Shown here: positions 1 through 18,861 of the stretch, piece by piece
How positions within the stretch are numbered: position 1 is the stretch's first letter
How the letters are laid out: each line of letters starts with the position of its first letter
Origin: a phage
Sequence record: PV467749.1
Length of the DNA stretch: 64,000 nucleotides
Direction: 5' to 3' (one strand)
Program-made: the position numbers and the translations under genes
The notes under the pieces: generated by a model
What the model saw: the letters and a program-made list of their open reading frames with translations, nothing else
Databases searched by the model: none
Told to the model about the DNA's origin: nothing

Positions 1-939
1 GAAGATAACAGTAGTGATTGTCAATTGTATGAAGAGAAAGGTACTGGAAAAGTTTTTATCACTGGTAACACGAAGGCATTCACTGGTGTAACTGATAGAA
101 AAACTTTGTGGACGGACTGTACTACGTGGATAACATCAAGTGGTATTAATGTTTCTGATATAAAATACATGAGTAGTTTTTATGATATGAAGGTGAATTT
201 GATAACAAACGATGGTACATTGTATTGTTGTGGAGCTAACAATATATCGAACATATCATCATTTGGTGATGGCACAAACATTAATTCTTTTAACACATTC
301 AAAAGAGTAGATACTATAACTTCGGTTAAAAAGGCTGTTGGTAACATTTATTTGCGAGAAGATAATACTTTATGGGGTTGTGGTTTTAACTATTACTACC
401 AGTTGGGCACGGGTAATCAAACTTCTATTACTGGGGTGACGATGATTTCTTCGGATGTTATAGATTTTAATGTAAGTTATCAGAGTACATTTTTTATCAA
501 ATCGGATAATAATTTGTACGCTTGTGGTAAACAGTTCGGTGCACAATATGGGAACGAATTTGGTACAGGTGGTACTTCCTCTTCTACTGATATACAATAT
601 AAAACTCCGACATTATTGAGTTCAGGAGTTTATACTCTATATACTTGTGTTGGTAACATGGCATCACATATTGTCAAAGCAGATGAAGTTCTATATGCTT
701 CTGGATCGAATAGGTTTGGGCAATTAGGTGTTGGTAATAATAATAATCAGTACTCCTATACTCCTTCATATACTTCGTTTAATACTTCGTGTAATTTGGT
801 ACGCACTCCATCTGGTTCACTTATACTTACTGACACTTCGAAGTTATATTATTCGGGTGCTTCATTTGTAGTAATGGGTGGTGGTGCTGGACAGAACGTT
901 CTTAATTATACCGAAGTCGATATGTCATTTGTGCAGTAA
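1..939 (+). CDS. RCC1-like beta-propeller repeat protein, array paralog 1 (5' end lies outside window)
   Basis: Frame is open from base 1 (ORF track starts at a TTG). Repeated RCC1-type motifs are present (LWGCGFNYYYQLGTGN, LYACGKQFGAQYGNEFGTGG, LYASGSNRFGQLGVGNN). It is followed by the conserved hairpin/promoter cassette. Confidence 0.8.
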   Translation, partial: EDNSSDCQLYEEKGTGKVFITGNTKAFTGVTDRKTLWTDCTTWITSSGINVSDIKYMSSFYDMKVNLITNDGTLYCCGANNISNISSFGDGTNINSFNTFKRVDTITSVKKAVGNIYLREDNTLWGCGFNYYYQLGTGNQTSITGVTMISSDVIDFNVSYQSTFFIKSDNNLYACGKQFGAQYGNEFGTGGTSSSTDIQYKTPTLLSSGVYTLYTCVGNMASHIVKADEVLYASGSNRFGQLGVGNNNNQYSYTPSYTSFNTSCNLVRTPSGSLILTDTSKLYYSGASFVVMGGGAGQNVLNYTEVDMSFVQ

Positions 940-1012
940 ATTAATATGCCAGTACTTGAGTACTGGCTTTTCTTTTTGTATTAAATATAGTATAATGAAT
1001 AAGGGAGGAAAT
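940..1012 (+). promoter_or_regulatory. Array cassette junction: hairpin terminator (gccagtacttgagtactggc, 948-967) + T-tract + conserved promoter block (TATAAT at 991-996) + SD AAGGGAGG
   Basis: Inverted repeat CCAGTACT..AGTACTGG followed by TTTTCTTTTT. The downstream block tattaaatatagtataatgaataagggaggaaat is conserved upstream of most array genes. Confidence 0.75.
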
Positions 1013-2122
1013 ATGTTACCTTTTGTAAGAATGGTTAAGTACGGGAATATTGCACCAGTACCGAAAAAAATAAAGAAAGTTATAGCAGGATATGATAATT
1101 TATATGTACTATATGGTGATGGTTCGCTATATGGTTGTGGAATCAATAACTATCAACAGTTAAATATTGATGGAACTGCTACACAAAATAATTGGGTACT
1201 AATTACCAATGGTGTTAGTAATGCATGGGCTGGTGGATACAATATTTTATATTTGAAAGAAGATAAATTTATAATGCACGGAACTAATGTCTCATTAGGT
1301 TTAGGAAATACTACAATTCCATTAGGTGGAGTAGATGTAACTTCTTCATTCCCAGATATCTCTAATATTAAAATGATATCCATTGGTTTTGATTCAATGC
1401 ACTATGTTAGTGCTGATGGTACAACTGTATATGGAAGAGGTATGAACACAAATGGTTCTGTTGGTTCAGGTAGTACTTACTCACAGAGTACTTTCACTTC
1501 AGTACTGAATAATGGAACTAATCAGGTTATTGATATATTTGGTAACGTTAATAATACAGTGCTTCTAACATCGAATGGTGAGCTTCGAGCATGTGGGACA
1601 AGTGCTTATGGTTCTATAGGAAATGAAACTGGTAAGTGGACATCGTTTGGTTTAAAATTATCTGGCACTAAAATAATGGGTGGTAATGGGTATAGTACGC
1701 TTGCATATACAAATTCGGGAATGTACCACTCAGGGTGGCAGTTAAATGGGGAACTAGGAAATGGTTTAAATACTAACGTACAGGTATATCCATTTCAATT
1801 TAACTCTAAAACGATAGATAGCAAGATAGATAAAATTGCCAAATCATCATCTGGGTCATATGTTAACATGTACTCAACAACAGAAGGAAAGATATATACG
1901 ACAGGTTCGTTTGGTAAAAACGGGTCAACTACTGCATTGAATTTGTTCACCAATACATTAACACTTATAAATTACAATCCAGATACCGCCTCGTTGTATA
2001 CGTGCACAAACTTCAGTGTTGTGTATGATGGTAATGAAACTATTGCTGTAAGTGGTAGTCCTACATATGTACCAGGGGGCGTTGCCGCTAATAGATGGAC
2101 TACAATTCCATTACCCAAGTAA
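1013..2122 (+). CDS. RCC1-like beta-propeller repeat protein, array paralog 2 (N-term MLPFVRMVKYGNIAP)
   Basis: ATG at 1013 lies 5 nt after SD AAGGGAGG. The ORF-track upstream extension (878-) reads through the promoter and is not credible. Motifs: LYGCGINNYQQLN, VYGRGMNTNGSVGSGS, LRACGTSAYGSIGNETG, MYHSGWQLNGELGNG. Confidence 0.85.
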   Translation: MLPFVRMVKYGNIAPVPKKIKKVIAGYDNLYVLYGDGSLYGCGINNYQQLNIDGTATQNNWVLITNGVSNAWAGGYNILYLKEDKFIMHGTNVSLGLGNTTIPLGGVDVTSSFPDISNIKMISIGFDSMHYVSADGTTVYGRGMNTNGSVGSGSTYSQSTFTSVLNNGTNQVIDIFGNVNNTVLLTSNGELRACGTSAYGSIGNETGKWTSFGLKLSGTKIMGGNGYSTLAYTNSGMYHSGWQLNGELGNGLNTNVQVYPFQFNSKTIDSKIDKIAKSSSGSYVNMYSTTEGKIYTTGSFGKNGSTTALNLFTNTLTLINYNPDTASLYTCTNFSVVYDGNETIAVSGSPTYVPGGVAANRWTTIPLPK

Positions 2123-2190
2123 TACTATGCCAGTACTTGATACTGGCTTTTTTTTGATTAAATATAGTATAATGAATAAAGGAGGGAATT
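2123..2190 (+). promoter_or_regulatory. Array cassette junction: hairpin terminator (2129-2147) + T8 + conserved promoter block (TATAAT 2168-2173) + SD AAAGGAGGG
   Basis: gccagtacttgatactggc tttttttt gattaaatatagtataatgaataaaggagggaatt ATG. Near-identical copies recur across the array. Confidence 0.8.
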
Positions 2191-17623: not shown

Positions 17624-17700
17624 GAGTACCTCAATTAAATCGCTGTAAAATTGTACATTATAAAATGATTAAATAAAGTATAACACAAGGAGATTTTATC
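17624..17700. promoter_or_regulatory. Divergent promoter region between 17623(-) and 17701(+); variant of array promoter (gattaaataaagtataaca) + SD AAGGAGA
   Basis: The block ATTAAATAAAGTATAAC is similar to the array block ATTAAATATAGTATAAT. Confidence 0.55.
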
Positions 17701-18825
17701 ATGTTACCTTTCGTATTGTTATTTGATTATGGGAACGAAAAACAAGAAAGTTCTTATGATGTTAGTGTATATGGAAACAATAACTACATTTTAAATAAAC
17801 AAACTGGAAACCTTTTTGCATCCGGTGCTGCGGCATTCATGGGTGATAACACAGTTAAGTATTATATTACCCAAATAGAATCAAATGTTCATAGCTGTGA
17901 GATAGGTTTCCTATCATCATGGATAATTAAGAAGGACAAAACTGTTTTCATTTTAGGAAACAAAAGCAGTATAGGATTAACTGGTTCGACAACATCATGG
18001 TTCGAAATTACAAATTTATTTTCTGCTGTTCCTGAAATATGGGACAACCTATTTGAATGTAAAGTTCAATTGGGATATAACTGTATACGTGTTATGACAC
18101 CACTAGGATCAATCTATGCGATTGGTACAAACACTTATGGTGCATTGGGTACTGGTACTACATCCTCATCAACTTCGTTCGTTAAAAGTGGTGCTGTGGA
18201 TGCTGTACGCATGGAATCAACAGAACGTTCAGTGTTCTATCAAAACAGTTCTGGACAATGGTTTGGATGTGGTGATAACACATATGGTATACTAGGTCTA
18301 GGAACTACCGCGAGTCGTGTAAACTCATACACCGCACCAGTATGGACTAATGCAGAAGCTGTTAGCTTCTCTAACCGTGGGATCATATACAGCCTCAATG
18401 GTACTCTATACTCATGTGGTGACAAAGTTAATGGTCAGCTAGGGGATGGATATACACAAAGCATAGACGCTGCCAGGAGCACACCATACACCATAGGAAC
18501 CGCATTCCAAATTGGTAAGGCAATAACATCAGCTACACAAGCATCAGCCAACGTATTCATTGGTAAAGATAATAAGTTCTATGGTACTGGTAGTATTGCT
18601 GCTGGTATAAATGGTAGTACTAGTGCTGCATTAAGTAAAGTTACTGCGTTATCAGCAGCACTACCACCTGACATTACATACAATGATATTATAACATTTA
18701 ATACAGGGACCGTAACTTTTATTCAAGCAAAAGGACAACTATATTATGTTGGTAGAAGAACTTACATAGATAATAGTTCAGACGTTACCACACAGTTCAG
18801 TGTAATTGGTGGCTTAGATAATTAA
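17701..18825 (+). CDS. RCC1-like beta-propeller repeat protein, array paralog 15 (N-term MLPFVLLFDYGN)
   Basis: Motifs: IYAIGTNTYGALGTGT, WFGCGDNTYGILGLGT, LYSCGDKVNGQLGDG. It is followed by hairpin 18831-18855. Confidence 0.85.
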   Translation: MLPFVLLFDYGNEKQESSYDVSVYGNNNYILNKQTGNLFASGAAAFMGDNTVKYYITQIESNVHSCEIGFLSSWIIKKDKTVFILGNKSSIGLTGSTTSWFEITNLFSAVPEIWDNLFECKVQLGYNCIRVMTPLGSIYAIGTNTYGALGTGTTSSSTSFVKSGAVDAVRMESTERSVFYQNSSGQWFGCGDNTYGILGLGTTASRVNSYTAPVWTNAEAVSFSNRGIIYSLNGTLYSCGDKVNGQLGDGYTQSIDAARSTPYTIGTAFQIGKAITSATQASANVFIGKDNKFYGTGSIAAGINGSTSAALSKVTALSAALPPDITYNDIITFNTGTVTFIQAKGQLYYVGRRTYIDNSSDVTTQFSVIGGLDN

Positions 18826-18830
18826 AATTA

Positions 18831-18861
18831 ATCCAGTACTATTATAGTACTGGATTTTTTA
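18831..18861. terminator. Bidirectional rho-independent terminator (atccagtactattatagtactggat + T6)
   Basis: Perfect 10-bp inverted repeat flanked by A- and T-tracts. It separates the + array from the minus-strand gene block. Confidence 0.8.

What the first reader, a model, noticed from the sequence alone, without database searches (positions are those of the whole stretch)
1..18861. Tandem array of at least 15 autonomous cassettes encoding diversified RCC1-like beta-propeller proteins with an invariant N-terminal dodecapeptide
Fifteen consecutive plus-strand genes (one cut by the window edge, one frameshifted) encode 360-450-aa proteins. Their bodies are full of RCC1-type blades (hxxxGxNxxGQLGxG) and have diverged substantially. 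Their first 12 residues are almost identical: MLPF(V/A)R(M/L)(F/V)(D/K)(Y/F)GN. Two sub-types, ...MFDYGN and ...MVKYGNIAP, alternate along the array. Nearly every gene is a self-contained transcription unit: the stop, a hairpin terminator, a T-tract, a conserved promoter block, an AAGGAGG SD, then the ATG. A phage locus of 15 divergent propellers, each with its own promoter and terminator and a common N-terminal tag, does not match standard phage modules (structural, replication, lysis). I have three hypotheses. (a) It is a polymorphic arsenal of host-factor-binding or anti-defence proteins carrying a shared targeting or packaging signal, analogous in logic to the capsid-targeting sequence of T4 internal proteins. 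(b) It is a multi-specific receptor-binding repertoire. (c) The N-terminal strand is the propeller 'velcro' closure.
Basis: partly seen in the sequence, partly recalled or inferred. Interest (0 to 1): 0.92.

Follow-up and report, generated by a model that had tools for sequence, protein, structure and literature searches.

The report
Shuffling cassette array of tagged virion proteins
A giant E. coli phage carries a row of 15 swappable gene cassettes for propeller-shaped virion proteins; they all begin with the same 12-residue peptide, which related phages also put on unrelated lectin-type domains, so it is most likely a shared ticket for mounting interchangeable binding modules on the virus particle.

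Summary
Window 1-18861 holds 15 plus-strand cassettes: 14 start MLPF..(Y/F)GN, one is cut by the window edge, one is frameshifted. The bodies are RCC1-like seven-bladed propellers, and most junctions read terminator, promoter, SD. The source is an Asteriusvirus (PBECO4/121Q group of Rak2-like jumbo phages). Multi-copy RCC1 genes and their presence in virions are already published for this group.

New here:
- The dodecapeptide is not part of the propeller (AF2 pLDDT about 51). It is a portable tag, also found on Kelch, Laminin_G_3 lectin and glycine-rich proteins, and only in this phage clade.
- Published virion proteomes (CBB, phAPEC6, JP4, GAP32) contain tagged proteins. CBB peptide lists include tag-derived peptides, so the tag is retained.
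- Close relatives differ by gain, loss and reordering of whole cassettes. 57 of 62 homology breakpoints fall in the junction block, as in T4 PeSL shuffling, but with a late-type TAAATA promoter.
- The tag's variable positions are genome-specific, which indicates concerted evolution.

Best reading: a virion-docking tag carrying interchangeable ligand-binding domains (accessory adhesins). The velcro idea is rejected, and the "DNA condensation" annotation is unsupported. Where the proteins sit on or in the virion is untested.

The parts
1..939 (+). Cassette 0 (type B), RCC1-like gene with its 5' end cut by the window edge
   Evidence: It is 95% identical to phAPEC6 gp549, which was detected by MS in virions (PMC7247149 Table 1). 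It is the first cassette of the array in WPEC3, 121Q and phAPEC6.
940..1012 (+). Canonical junction block: hairpin terminator 948-967, T-tract, TTAAATATAGTATAAT promoter-like box, SD
   Evidence: hairpin dG -13.2, z -5.0. The same block lies at 2123-2190, 3319-3388, 4511-4581, 9300-9369, 10540-10612, 11793-11863, 13043-13112, 14289-14367 and 15718-15787.
1013..2122 (+). Cassette 1, 369 aa, tag MLPFVRMVKYGN
   Evidence: 100% identical to WPEC3 cassette 2. 64% identical to phAPEC6 gp009.
2191..3318 (+). Cassette 2, 375 aa, tag MLPFVRMFDYGN
   Evidence: Absent from WPEC3. Present in metagenome contigs L044, L058 and L081, and in phage CMSTMSU (L031).
3389..4510 (+). Cassette 3, 373 aa, tag MLPFVRMFDYGN
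   Evidence: Absent from WPEC3 and shared with EJP2.
4582..5763 (+). Cassette 4, 393 aa
5764..5837 (+). Variant junction: hairpin 5766-5795, then GTAAATACATTATAAT and a weaker SD
   Evidence: hairpin dG -15.0.
5838..6968 (+). Cassette 5, 376 aa
6979..8181 (+). Cassette 6, 400 aa, tag MLPFARMVKFGN. Only a 10-nt gap upstream, so it is read through from cassette 5.
8190..9299 (+). Cassette 7 (type A), 369 aa. Only an 8-nt gap upstream.
   Evidence: Type A is present in all 7 Asteriusvirus arrays compared.
9370..10539 (+). Cassette 8, 389 aa
   Evidence: 91% identical to phAPEC6 gp010, detected by MS in virions (PMC7247149).
10613..11792 (+). Cassette 9, frameshifted near 10741-10748 (59-aa ORF, then ORF 10716-11792)
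   Evidence: The frameshifted sequence is identical in WPEC3.
11864..13042 (+). Cassette 10, 392 aa
   Evidence: Absent from WPEC3 and shared with EJP2.
13113..14288 (+). Cassette 11, 391 aa
   Evidence: 86% identical to phAPEC6 gp006, detected by MS in virions.
14368..15717 (+). Cassette 12, 449 aa, divergent
   Evidence: No Pfam hit. phrog_4219 E 3e-16. hhalign 99.3% to the family over residues 1-302. Its order relative to cassette 13 is inverted in WPEC3.
15788..16939 (+). Cassette 13 (type D), 383 aa; this is the protein modelled
   Evidence: AF2 pLDDT 93, seven blades. Foldseek hits to UVR8 and RCC1. Orthologues phAPEC6 gp005 (92%) and JP4_582 were found in virions.
16943..16968 (+). Terminator hairpin after cassette 13
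   Evidence: dG -16.1, z -7.5.
16973..17623 (-). Minus-strand ORF of 216 aa that interrupts the array. It is not a cassette.
   Evidence: phrog_34359, unknown function. Conserved at the right end of the arrays in WPEC3, 121Q, PBECO4 and phAPEC6.
17701..18825 (+). Cassette 14, 374 aa, tag MLPFVLLFDYGN, with its own diverged promoter-like box (ATTAAATAAAGTATAAC)
18830..18856 (.). Terminal hairpin closing the array, facing the converging minus-strand genes
   Evidence: dG -15.4.

Best explanation
The region is the hyperplastic accessory virion-protein locus of an Asteriusvirus, a Rak2-like jumbo myovirus of E. coli.

Each cassette encodes a two-part protein:
- A 12-residue N-terminal peptide, M-[L/I]-P-F-x-R-[M/I/L]-x-x-Y-G-N, followed by a short flexible linker.
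- A variable globular domain. In this window it is always an RCC1-like seven-bladed propeller.

Shown here:
- The peptide is independent of the fold it heads and is specific to this phage clade.
- Proteins that carry it are present in purified virions of related phages.
- The peptide is still on the mature protein.
- The unit that is gained, lost and reordered between close relatives is one cassette. It is bounded by a conserved block running from the stop codon through terminator, TAAATA-type promoter and SD to the first 36 coding bases.

Inferred:
- The peptide is a docking tag that plugs every family member into one conserved site on the particle.
- The variable domains are ligand-binding modules, most likely for host surface glycans or proteins. 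Each virion would then carry a mixed set of accessory adhesins.
- The genes are transcribed late, each from its own promoter.
- Homologous recombination in the junction block reshuffles the repertoire and homogenises the tag within a genome.
For: Fold:
- Pfam RCC1 family hits.
- AF2 model of cassette 13: pLDDT 93, pTM 0.89, 28 strands in 7 blades.
- Foldseek TM 0.65-0.80 to UVR8, HERC2, RPGR and RCC1.

The tag is not part of the fold:
- Residues 1-10 have pLDDT 51 and residues 11-20 have pLDDT 70. The first blade strand starts at residue 22.

The tag is portable:
- GAP32_002 (ConA-like lectin), XbC2_590 (Kelch), XbC2_591 (RCC1 plus Kelch), Munch_544 (Gly_rich_2), and all nine plus-strand genes of the syntenic CBB islands start with it.
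- Among 116 non-redundant tagged proteins, 70 are RCC1-like, 12 Kelch, 14 Laminin_G_3, and 1 each Gly_rich_2 and legume-lectin-like.

Clade restriction:
- Degenerate DNA scans find credible tags only in Rak2-like contigs. These are mostly 348-378 kb in IMG/VR, and are arrays with the same architecture in metagenomes.
- None was found in 596 Gb of cellular genomes.
- None lies in the 50-kb core structural region of phAPEC6 or in the rest of the window.

Protein-level selection on the tag:
- Conserved residues use several synonymous codons: P3 CCT 53, CCA 44, CCG 6; Y10 TAC 59, TAT 44; G11 uses four codons.
- The tag persists on operonic genes that have no junction block (Munch, CBB).

Virion association:
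- phAPEC6 MS found 8 RCC1-like proteins (PMC7247149 Table 1). Four are 86-95% orthologues of window cassettes.
- JP4 MS lists at least 3 tagged proteins.
- GAP32 gp1 and seven CBB tagged proteins were detected in virions (PMC5259590).

Tag retained in the virion:
- CBB virion peptides LLQYGNK, LFEYANVIIPPNYK and YANVIVEYATK come from the tag.

Shuffling:
- Cassettes shared by the window and WPEC3 are 99-100% identical. Four window cassettes are absent from WPEC3, and two are in inverted order.
- Seven arrays hold 35 cassette types, 12 of them singletons, and no two arrays have the same order.
- 57 of 62 internal HSP ends fall in junction blocks, which cover 9.9% of the region.

Concerted evolution of the tag:
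- Type A carries VRLFD here, ARMVK in 121Q and VRMLE in EJP2.

Late promoter class:
- A TAAATA core precedes the MCP, baseplate and other structural genes in phAPEC6.
- The CBB authors' late-promoter list includes the tagged genes Porf_537, 551, 552 and 553.
- The window's virion structural gene 47334-48491 has ATAAATA-N3-TATAAT upstream.

Functional proteins:
- dN/dS is 0.14-0.25.

Binding-module character:
- Lectin, Kelch and RCC1 folds; S+T+N content 25-32%; pI 4.8-8.5, not basic.
- Cellular homologues found by profile search are mostly multi-domain proteins with Ig-like, SLH or FN3 domains.
Against: - No experiment or structure shows where on or in the virion these proteins sit, or what the tag binds.
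- MS coverage of the RCC1 proteins in phAPEC6 and JP4 is low (1-5 peptides), so carry-over contamination cannot be fully excluded for each individual protein.
- No ligand is known for any member.
- A 12-residue anchor is much shorter than characterised phage receptor-binding-protein anchor domains.
- The promoter class is inferred from motif similarity only. The perfect TATAAT could equally serve host sigma-70.
- The breakpoint statistic counts related genomes as if they were independent.
- The invariance of P3, F4 and G11 in the large regex-selected set is partly circular. The independent support is the homology-collected alignment A2 and the annotation-derived CBB set.
Confidence: 0.55

Rival explanations
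1. The tag is a capsid-targeting signal. The proteins would be packaged inside the head, like T4 internal proteins and Alt or the phiKZ inner-body proteins, and injected with the DNA to act on host factors or defence systems. The polymorphic repertoire would then reflect an arms race inside the cell.
For: - A short conserved N-terminal peptide sits on otherwise unrelated proteins in a hyperplastic, cassette-shuffling locus of a T4-related phage. This is the same logic as the T4 internal-protein locus.
- The proteins are in virions.
- phAPEC6 has an inner body whose protein components have not been identified (PMC7247149).
- MS abundance is low.
Against: - The tag is retained in virions, whereas T4 capsid-targeting sequences are cleaved off by the prohead protease.
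- The tag has no conserved (L/I)xE or S/A/G-x-E site in or after it.
- The proteins are acidic to neutral (pI 4.8-8.5), not basic.
- Lectin (ConA-like), Kelch and glycine-rich adhesin-like folds are typical of extracellular binding.
- Forty-kDa rigid propellers would have to unfold to pass down the tail tube.
Confidence: 0.18
2. The tag serves assembly or quality control rather than docking. It would be a recognition peptide for a phage chaperone, modifying enzyme or degradation/timing system that handles all family members. Incorporation into the virion would then depend on other surfaces of the proteins.
For: - The tag is predicted to be flexible and exposed.
- It is conserved across folds.
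- It co-varies within genomes, as expected for co-evolution with a single genome-encoded partner of any kind.
Against: - No candidate partner has been identified.
- Unrelated folds have no other conserved surface that could explain their shared presence in virions.
- The peptide persists on the mature protein.
Confidence: 0.12
3. The identical N-termini are a by-product of DNA-level processes. The first 36 bases would belong to the recombination and regulatory block and be homogenised by gene conversion, or be constrained for translation initiation, with no function as a peptide.
For: - Within the window the tag codons are 88% identical at the nucleotide level, against 35% for the next 60 nt.
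- Homology breakpoints end exactly at codon 12.
- Tag subtypes are genome-specific.
Against: - Across genera the residues are kept while the codons vary.
- The tag is kept on overlapping, operonic genes that have no terminator-promoter block (Munch and CBB).
- It is kept on unrelated folds in phages whose DNA is not alignable.
Confidence: 0.07
4. The proteins are DNA or chromosome condensation factors, as annotated in GenBank and as suggested for the phAPEC6 inner body.
For: Pfam and PHROG family names. A suggestion in PMC7247149.
Against: - The name comes from eukaryotic RCC1, a Ran exchange factor. Bacteria have no Ran.
- The proteins are not basic.
- The same tag and locus carry lectin and Kelch domains in sister phages.
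- The top structural match is UVR8, not RCC1.
Confidence: 0.04
5. The N-terminal strand is the velcro closure of the propeller.
For: Many propellers close with an N-terminal strand.
Against: - In the model, closure uses strand 22-27 together with the C-terminal strand 369-376.
- Residues 1-20 are low-confidence and lie outside the sheet.
- The same peptide heads non-propeller folds.
Confidence: 0.02

Closest known systems
Multi-copy RCC1-like 'DNA condensation' genes of Asteriusvirus and other Rak2-like jumbo phages (121Q_234-248, PBECO4, phAPEC6 gp001-010 and gp549-551, GAP32 gp1)
   Same: This is the same locus and the same protein family. The window is 97.5-99.5% identical to WPEC3 in shared segments. 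Tandem duplication and MS detection in virions are already reported (PMC7247149, PMC5259590).
   Different: The literature searched here does not describe the shared N-terminal peptide, its presence on Kelch, LamG and Gly-rich proteins, its retention in virions, or cassette-level recombination at the junctions. The published functional suggestion (DNA condensation) is not supported by this analysis.
PeSLs (promoter-early stem-loops) of T4-type phages (Arbiol et al. 2010, PMC2839356; Comeau et al. 2014, PMC4122927)
   Same: Both are composite intergenic modules made of stop codon, stem-loop terminator, promoter, SD and start codon. Both are repeated through a hyperplastic region. In both, insertions, deletions and replacements between close relatives have their end points in the repeats.
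   Different: PeSLs carry consensus sigma-70 -35/-10 early promoters and flank unrelated small ORFans. Here there is no -35 element, and a TAAATA late-type core sits next to TATAAT. The conserved block extends 36 nt into the coding sequence as a functional peptide. The cargo is one protein superfamily found in virions. Mini-circles were not tested.
T4 internal-protein locus and capsid-targeting sequence (IPI, IPII, IPIII, Alt); from established T4 knowledge, no paper read here
   Same: A short conserved N-terminal peptide directs otherwise dissimilar proteins into the particle. The locus is polymorphic between related phages.
   Different: The T4 sequence is removed by the gp21 protease at (L/I)xE, and its cargo is small and basic. 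Here the peptide is retained, has no conserved Glu, and the cargo is 20-45 kDa lectin-like or propeller domains.
Branched multi-receptor-binding-protein systems with conserved N-terminal anchors (CBA120 and G7C tailspikes; phiKp24 and RaK2 hyperbranched fibres, PMC9700779)
   Same: Many different binding proteins sit on one virion. Each attaches through a conserved N-terminal module to a shared adaptor. The set is exchangeable between relatives, and the phage lineage is related.
   Different: Those proteins are trimeric beta-helix depolymerases or fibres, with anchor domains of tens to hundreds of residues that dock on T4 gp10-like domains. Here the bodies are compact, probably monomeric domains behind a 12-residue peptide, and no adaptor has been identified.
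T2/S16-type gp38 adhesins (PMC3157838)
   Same: A small adhesin with a conserved N-terminal attachment part and a variable receptor-binding part rich in glycine motifs. One tagged family (121Q_243, Munch_544) is a glycine-rich domain.
   Different: There is no sequence relationship to gp38. Its attachment domain is about 90 aa and caps one specific fibre.

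Membership tests
RCC1-like repeat beta-propeller superfamily (Pfam PF00415 / PF13540 / PF25390) | Repeats matching the RCC1 profiles | tested here: met
   9 of 10 products hit these profiles. PF00415 is above its gathering score in 7 of the 10 products scanned (for example 50.2, 37.2 and 35.5 bits against a cut-off of 21.7). The 449-aa outlier joins the family by hhalign at 99.3%.
RCC1-like repeat beta-propeller superfamily (Pfam PF00415 / PF13540 / PF25390) | Seven-bladed propeller of four-stranded blades | tested here: met
   AF2 pLDDT 93 and pTM 0.89, with 7 x 4 strands. Foldseek TM 0.65-0.80 to UVR8, HERC2 RLD, RPGR and RCC1. Only one paralogue was modelled with confidence; the single-sequence model of the 449-aa paralogue failed.
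RCC1 proper (Ran exchange factor / chromatin-binding 'regulator of chromosome condensation') | Ran GTPase partner and a basic chromatin- or DNA-binding surface | tested here: not met
   Bacteria have no Ran (established knowledge). pI is 4.8-8.5 with no excess of basic residues. The best structural match is UVR8. Biochemical DNA binding is not testable with these tools.
PeSL regulatory cassettes of T4-type phages | Repeated intergenic composite of stem-loop terminator, promoter and SD in a hyperplastic region | tested here: met
   There are 10 canonical and 2 variant copies within 19 kb and none elsewhere in the window.
PeSL regulatory cassettes of T4-type phages | Indel, replacement and rearrangement end points between close relatives coincide with the elements | tested here: met
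   57 of 62 internal HSP ends lie in the blocks, which cover 9.9% of the region.
PeSL regulatory cassettes of T4-type phages | Consensus sigma-70 early promoter (-35 TTGACA and -10 TATAAT) | tested here: not met
   The -10 element TATAAT is perfect, but there is no -35 element at 16-18 bp. None of the sites listed by the generic sigma-70 scan lies in a junction, and that scan was not enriched overall (83 found against 99.6 expected; 23 weaker sites were not shown). The TAAATA core matches the late class of Rak2-like phages.
PeSL regulatory cassettes of T4-type phages | Excised mini-circles formed by recombination between elements | not testable with these tools
   This needs PCR or long reads from infected cells or virion DNA.
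T4-type capsid-targeting sequence proteins | Short conserved N-terminal peptide shared by unrelated cargo proteins found in the particle | tested here: met
T4-type capsid-targeting sequence proteins | Peptide removed by the prohead protease at a conserved Glu site | tested here: not met
   Tag-derived tryptic peptides are present in CBB virions. The tag has no conserved Glu in or after it.
T4-type capsid-targeting sequence proteins | Location inside the capsid and ejection into the host | not testable with these tools
   This needs fractionation, protease protection or cryo-EM.
Branched receptor-binding-protein systems with N-terminal anchors | Trimeric fibre or beta-helix body | tested here: not met
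   The modelled body is a compact propeller. The other bodies are ConA-like lectin, Kelch or Gly-rich domains of 200-300 aa. Oligomeric state was not tested.
Branched receptor-binding-protein systems with N-terminal anchors | Docking to an adaptor with T4 gp10-like domains | not tested
   No partner search was possible because the structure tool predicts single chains only.

The most novel reading that the evidence does not exclude
The dodecapeptide is a universal plug for one conserved socket on Rak2-like jumbo-phage particles. That would make it a natural plug-and-play display system.

Any domain that acquires the 36-nt tag, which happens automatically because the tag is part of the recombining junction block, would be mounted on the virion. 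Each particle would then carry a mixed and possibly stochastic set of up to 15-18 different lectin or propeller binders. Populations would re-deal this set by cassette shuffling.

This would be a new mode of host-range or environment adaptation. It would also offer a ready-made 12-residue tag for engineering display on jumbo phages.
Probability: 0.4. Interest if true: 0.8.

Novelty: new variant of a known kind. Interest (0 to 1): 0.62.

Why it matters
Rak2-like jumbo phages are being isolated as therapy candidates. In pairs of near-identical isolates, the "chromosome condensation regulator" genes are among the few differences (PMC13070987). They are currently filed under nucleotide metabolism (PHROGs) or DNA condensation.

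This analysis re-reads them as the propeller branch of a larger family of tagged virion accessory proteins. That gives a concrete hypothesis for what differs between such isolates: the set of binding modules on the particle.

It also defines a 12-residue, fold-independent signature that predicts virion association from sequence alone. It extends PeSL-type modular shuffling from early ORFan genes of T4-like phages to late virion genes of jumbo phages, with the crossover block reaching into the coding sequence. If the docking function holds, it suggests an engineering handle for displaying cargo on jumbo-phage particles.

All of these points can be tested directly with tag fusions and tag mutants.

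Tried and rejected
- The generic sigma-70 scan was not enriched (83 sites found against 99.6 expected). None of the sites it listed falls in a junction, so it was uninformative.
- AF2 on the 449-aa cassette without an alignment failed (pLDDT 32). Its family membership rests on PHROG and hhalign results instead.
- Mapping variable positions onto the propeller faces was not possible, because the structure tool returns no coordinates.
- The velcro-strand idea was rejected (plus non-propeller carriers of the tag).
- A programmed-frameshift reading of cassette 9 was considered. The shift site (GGACGGAAAC) has no slippery run, so it is treated as a pseudogene shared with WPEC3.
- The scan of 596 Gb of cellular genomes gave only 14 isolated hits, none with an SD and a proper ORF start. 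This is about what chance predicts.
- A relaxed tag search found nothing in the phAPEC6 core structural region or in the rest of the window.
- Literature searches for any description of the tag or of RCC1 function in phage virions returned nothing beyond the genome and proteome papers.
- phAPEC6 has no supplementary peptide lists held as text, so tag retention could be checked only in CBB.
- Gene-wide positive selection was tested and not found (dN/dS 0.14-0.25).

Full report
**Source and context**

Megablast places the window in the PBECO4/121Q group of E. coli jumbo phages (Asteriusvirus, Rak2-like). The closest record is phage WPEC3. No single place covers more than 41% of the 19-kb query, because the array is mosaic. 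The genes are annotated in GenBank as "regulator of chromosome condensation", "DNA condensation protein", "HERC1" or "GTPase regulator".

The rest of the window is almost entirely minus-strand small genes. GC skew changes sign at about 18.8 kb. The array is therefore a plus-strand island between divergent gene blocks, as it is in WPEC3, 121Q, PBECO4, Sharanji, EJP2 and phAPEC6.

**Checking the observation**

Fourteen plus-strand genes start with MLPF. A fifteenth gene is cut by the window edge. It is the 3' part of the cassette that opens the array in WPEC3, 121Q and phAPEC6.

One cassette (10613-11792) is frameshifted near 10741-10748, and its sequence is identical in WPEC3.

The first 12 residues are 83% identical on average, against 19% for the bodies. 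The tag regex matches 14 times in the window and never in shuffles.

Ten junctions carry an exact 22-mer that occurs nowhere else in the 64 kb. It sits behind a GCCAGTAC/GTACTGGC hairpin (dG -10 to -16 kcal/mol, z -4 to -7.5) and a T-tract.

Corrections to the finding:
- A minus-strand ORF (16973-17623) interrupts the run.
- Two genes (6979 and 8190) have no junction block, and two more (5838 and 17701) have diverged blocks.
- The MFDYGN and MVKYGN subtypes do not alternate.

**Fold**

Nine of the 10 products scanned hit the Pfam RCC1 families. The AF2 model of cassette 13, built on 32 family sequences, is confident (pLDDT 93, pTM 0.89) and has seven four-stranded blades. Foldseek matches UVR8, HERC2 and HERC1 RLDs, RPGR and RCC1 at TM 0.65-0.80, and also the homologous phage proteins in BFVD. 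The 449-aa cassette has no Pfam hit but aligns to the family profile. A single-sequence AF2 run on it failed.

**The tag is a separate, portable module**

In the model, residues 1-10 have pLDDT 51 and residues 11-20 have pLDDT 70. The propeller starts at residue 22 and closes with the C-terminal strand. The velcro idea therefore fails.

A tblastn search shows the family in Escherichia, Salmonella, Yersinia, Erwinia, Klebsiella, Xanthomonas and Cronobacter jumbo phages. Reading those loci showed the same peptide on proteins that are not RCC1:
- GAP32_002, a ConA-like lectin.
- XbC2_590, a Kelch protein.
- XbC2_591, an RCC1 plus Kelch fusion.
- Munch_544, a Gly_rich_2 protein.

In CBB, the syntenic plus-strand island CBB_548-554 and the pair CBB_536/537 are Kelch, LamG or unknown folds. 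All nine start MLPF..Y(G/A)N.

A degenerate DNA pattern for the tag gave the following:
- In IMG/VR it hit Rak2-like jumbo contigs (mostly 348-378 kb), one 109-kb contig carrying three tagged RCC1-type genes, and one spurious 7.8-kb contig.
- In metagenomes it hit arrays with the same architecture plus scattered chance hits.
- In 596 Gb of cellular genomes it hit nothing credible.

Altogether there are 186 distinct tagged proteins. They form 116 clusters at 80% identity and 12 BLAST families. Among the 116 cluster representatives, Pfam finds 70 RCC1-like, 12 Kelch, 14 Laminin_G_3, one Gly_rich_2 and one legume-lectin-like protein.

No tag occurs in the 50-kb core structural region of phAPEC6 or elsewhere in the window.

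The conserved residues are encoded by several synonymous codons across the clade. The tag also persists on overlapping operonic genes that have no junction block. Selection therefore acts on the peptide.

One caveat applies. Invariance of P3, F4 and G11 in the regex-selected set is circular. The independent support comes from the homology-collected alignment A2 (M1, P3, F4, G11 and N12 invariant; R6 and Y10 at 90% or more) and from the CBB set found through annotation.

**Virion association**

- phAPEC6 ESI-MS/MS lists eight of these proteins in purified particles (PMC7247149). gp549, gp005, gp006 and gp010 are orthologues of window cassettes 0, 13, 11 and 8, at 95, 92, 86 and 91% identity.
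- The JP4 virion proteome lists at least three tagged proteins, including the orthologue of cassette 13.
- GAP32 gp1 and seven tagged CBB proteins were detected in virions (PMC5259590).
- The CBB peptide table contains LLQYGNK, LFEYANVIIPPNYK and YANVIVEYATK. These lie inside or span the tag. So the tag is not removed during maturation.
- The tagged LamG-like family is PHROG 6011, "virion structural protein". Untagged homologues of its body occur in 150-kb myoviruses, where they are also annotated as virion proteins.

**Cassette dynamics**

The window and WPEC3 share cassettes at 99-100% identity. Window cassettes 2, 3, 10 and 11 are missing from WPEC3, WPEC3 has others instead, and the order of two cassettes is inverted. 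Every megablast breakpoint lies between a stop codon and codon 12 of the next gene.

Across seven Asteriusvirus arrays there are 35 cassette types, 12 of them singletons, and no two orders are the same.

Against 16 related loci, 57 of 62 internal HSP ends fall in junction blocks that cover 9.9% of the region. The nominal binomial P is 2e-51, inflated by the relatedness of the subject sequences.

This is the behaviour described for PeSLs in T4-type phages (PMC2839356, PMC4122927). It differs in two ways:
- There is no -35 element. The core TAAATA matches the late-type motif upstream of the phAPEC6 MCP, baseplate and other structural genes. It also matches the CBB authors' late-promoter list, which includes the tagged genes.
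- The conserved block runs 36 nt into the ORF.

The window's own virion structural gene at 47334-48491 has ATAAATA-N3-TATAAT upstream.

The variable tag positions (5 and 7-9) follow the genome, not the cassette type. This indicates homogenisation through the junction, co-evolution with a genome-encoded partner, or both.

Orthologous cassettes are under purifying selection (dN/dS 0.14-0.25). The diversity is therefore an old repertoire being re-dealt, not rapid point-mutational hypervariation.

**Mechanism**

Shown:
- The fold.
- The modular tag and its restriction to this clade.
- Presence in virions and retention of the tag.
- Cassette-bounded recombination.

Inferred:
- The tag docks all family members onto one conserved site of the particle.
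- The variable domains bind host-surface ligands.
- Expression is late.

Support for the binding inference:
- The set of folds: ConA-like and legume-type lectins, Kelch (including NanM-like hits), RCC1-like, and a glycine-rich adhesin-like domain.
- A composition rich in Ser, Thr and Asn, with a non-basic pI.
- Cellular homologues that are mostly multi-domain proteins with Ig-like, SLH or FN3 domains.

The main rival is packaging inside the head and ejection into the host. It shares the logic of the T4 capsid-targeting sequence but fails the cleavage criterion. It is not excluded, because no localisation data exist. The "DNA condensation" label has no support beyond the family name.

**Novelty and score**

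The array of RCC1-like genes and their detection in virions are published. The portable tag, its retention in virions, the late-type junction blocks that extend into the coding sequence, and the genome-specific concerted evolution of the tag were not found in the literature searched here.

I rate this a new variant of known kinds: anchor-plus-variable-domain virion proteins, and PeSL-type shuffling. It is interesting mainly because it is directly testable.

Noticed in passing
window 18862-21301 (minus strand): Seven tandem paralogous genes encode small proteins of 104-123 aa that look like polytopic membrane proteins. They lie immediately downstream of the array and converge on it. The same block is syntenic in 121Q, PBECO4, WPEC3 and CBB/GAP32, where the genes are annotated 'membrane protein'. 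It is followed by a conserved 257-aa gene (21369-22142).
   Followed up: partly
window 47334-48491 (+), promoter-like box at about 47298: A lone plus-strand gene sits inside the minus-strand block. It is a full-length match to phrog_10468 'virion structural protein'. By size and strand it is likely the orthologue of phAPEC6 gp077 (42.9 kDa, 10 peptides in virions), but this was not checked by alignment. It is preceded by ATAAATACGTTATAAT, the same late-type box as the array junctions.
   Followed up: partly
window 54301-58844 (minus strand): Four tRNA genes: Thr(UGU), Asn(GUU), Ser(GCU) and Ser(UGA). These are the residues that make up 25-32% of the propeller proteins. The link is only suggestive.
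   Followed up: no
window 10613-11792: The frameshifted cassette carries the identical frameshift in WPEC3, and its counterpart in PBECO4 is also truncated. An inactivated cassette has therefore been inherited or transferred as a unit rather than purged. There is no slippery sequence at the shift site.
   Followed up: partly
window 16973-17623 (minus strand): A 216-aa ORF of unknown function (phrog_34359) is embedded near the right end of the array on the opposite strand. It is conserved in that position in relatives. In 121Q, PBECO4 and phAPEC6 it follows the last cassette instead of preceding it.
   Followed up: partly
L023 (WPEC3) 7807-12209 and L024 (121Q) 1941-5777, just left of the array and outside the window: A second tandem array of about 20 ORFs of roughly 60 aa each lies on the minus strand and abuts the first RCC1 cassette. 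The tagged array is therefore flanked on both sides by other paralogue arrays.
   Followed up: no
phage collection hits H94-H123: The body of the tagged LamG-like family (GAP32_002 type) has homologues in about 150-kb myoviruses (CR3, PBES 02, GAP31, 4MG, CR8, CR9). The alignments start at residue 6-19 and miss all or most of the tag. Where annotated, these are 'virion structural protein'. The same binding module is used with a different N-terminus in another phage lineage.
   Followed up: no
L026/L027 (phAPEC6): The phAPEC6 record shows a W-F-W-F repetition of two cassette types across the record's start and end. This could be a genuine duplication or terminal redundancy in the assembly.
   Followed up: no
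alignments A1 and A2, C-termini of the window paralogues: The RCC1 members also share a C-terminal motif (hydrophobic-x-(D/P)-L-P, with the proline at 90% or more in A2). It lies just after the last blade strand, next to where the N-terminal tag leaves the propeller. The motif is absent from the non-RCC1 tagged families.
   Followed up: partly
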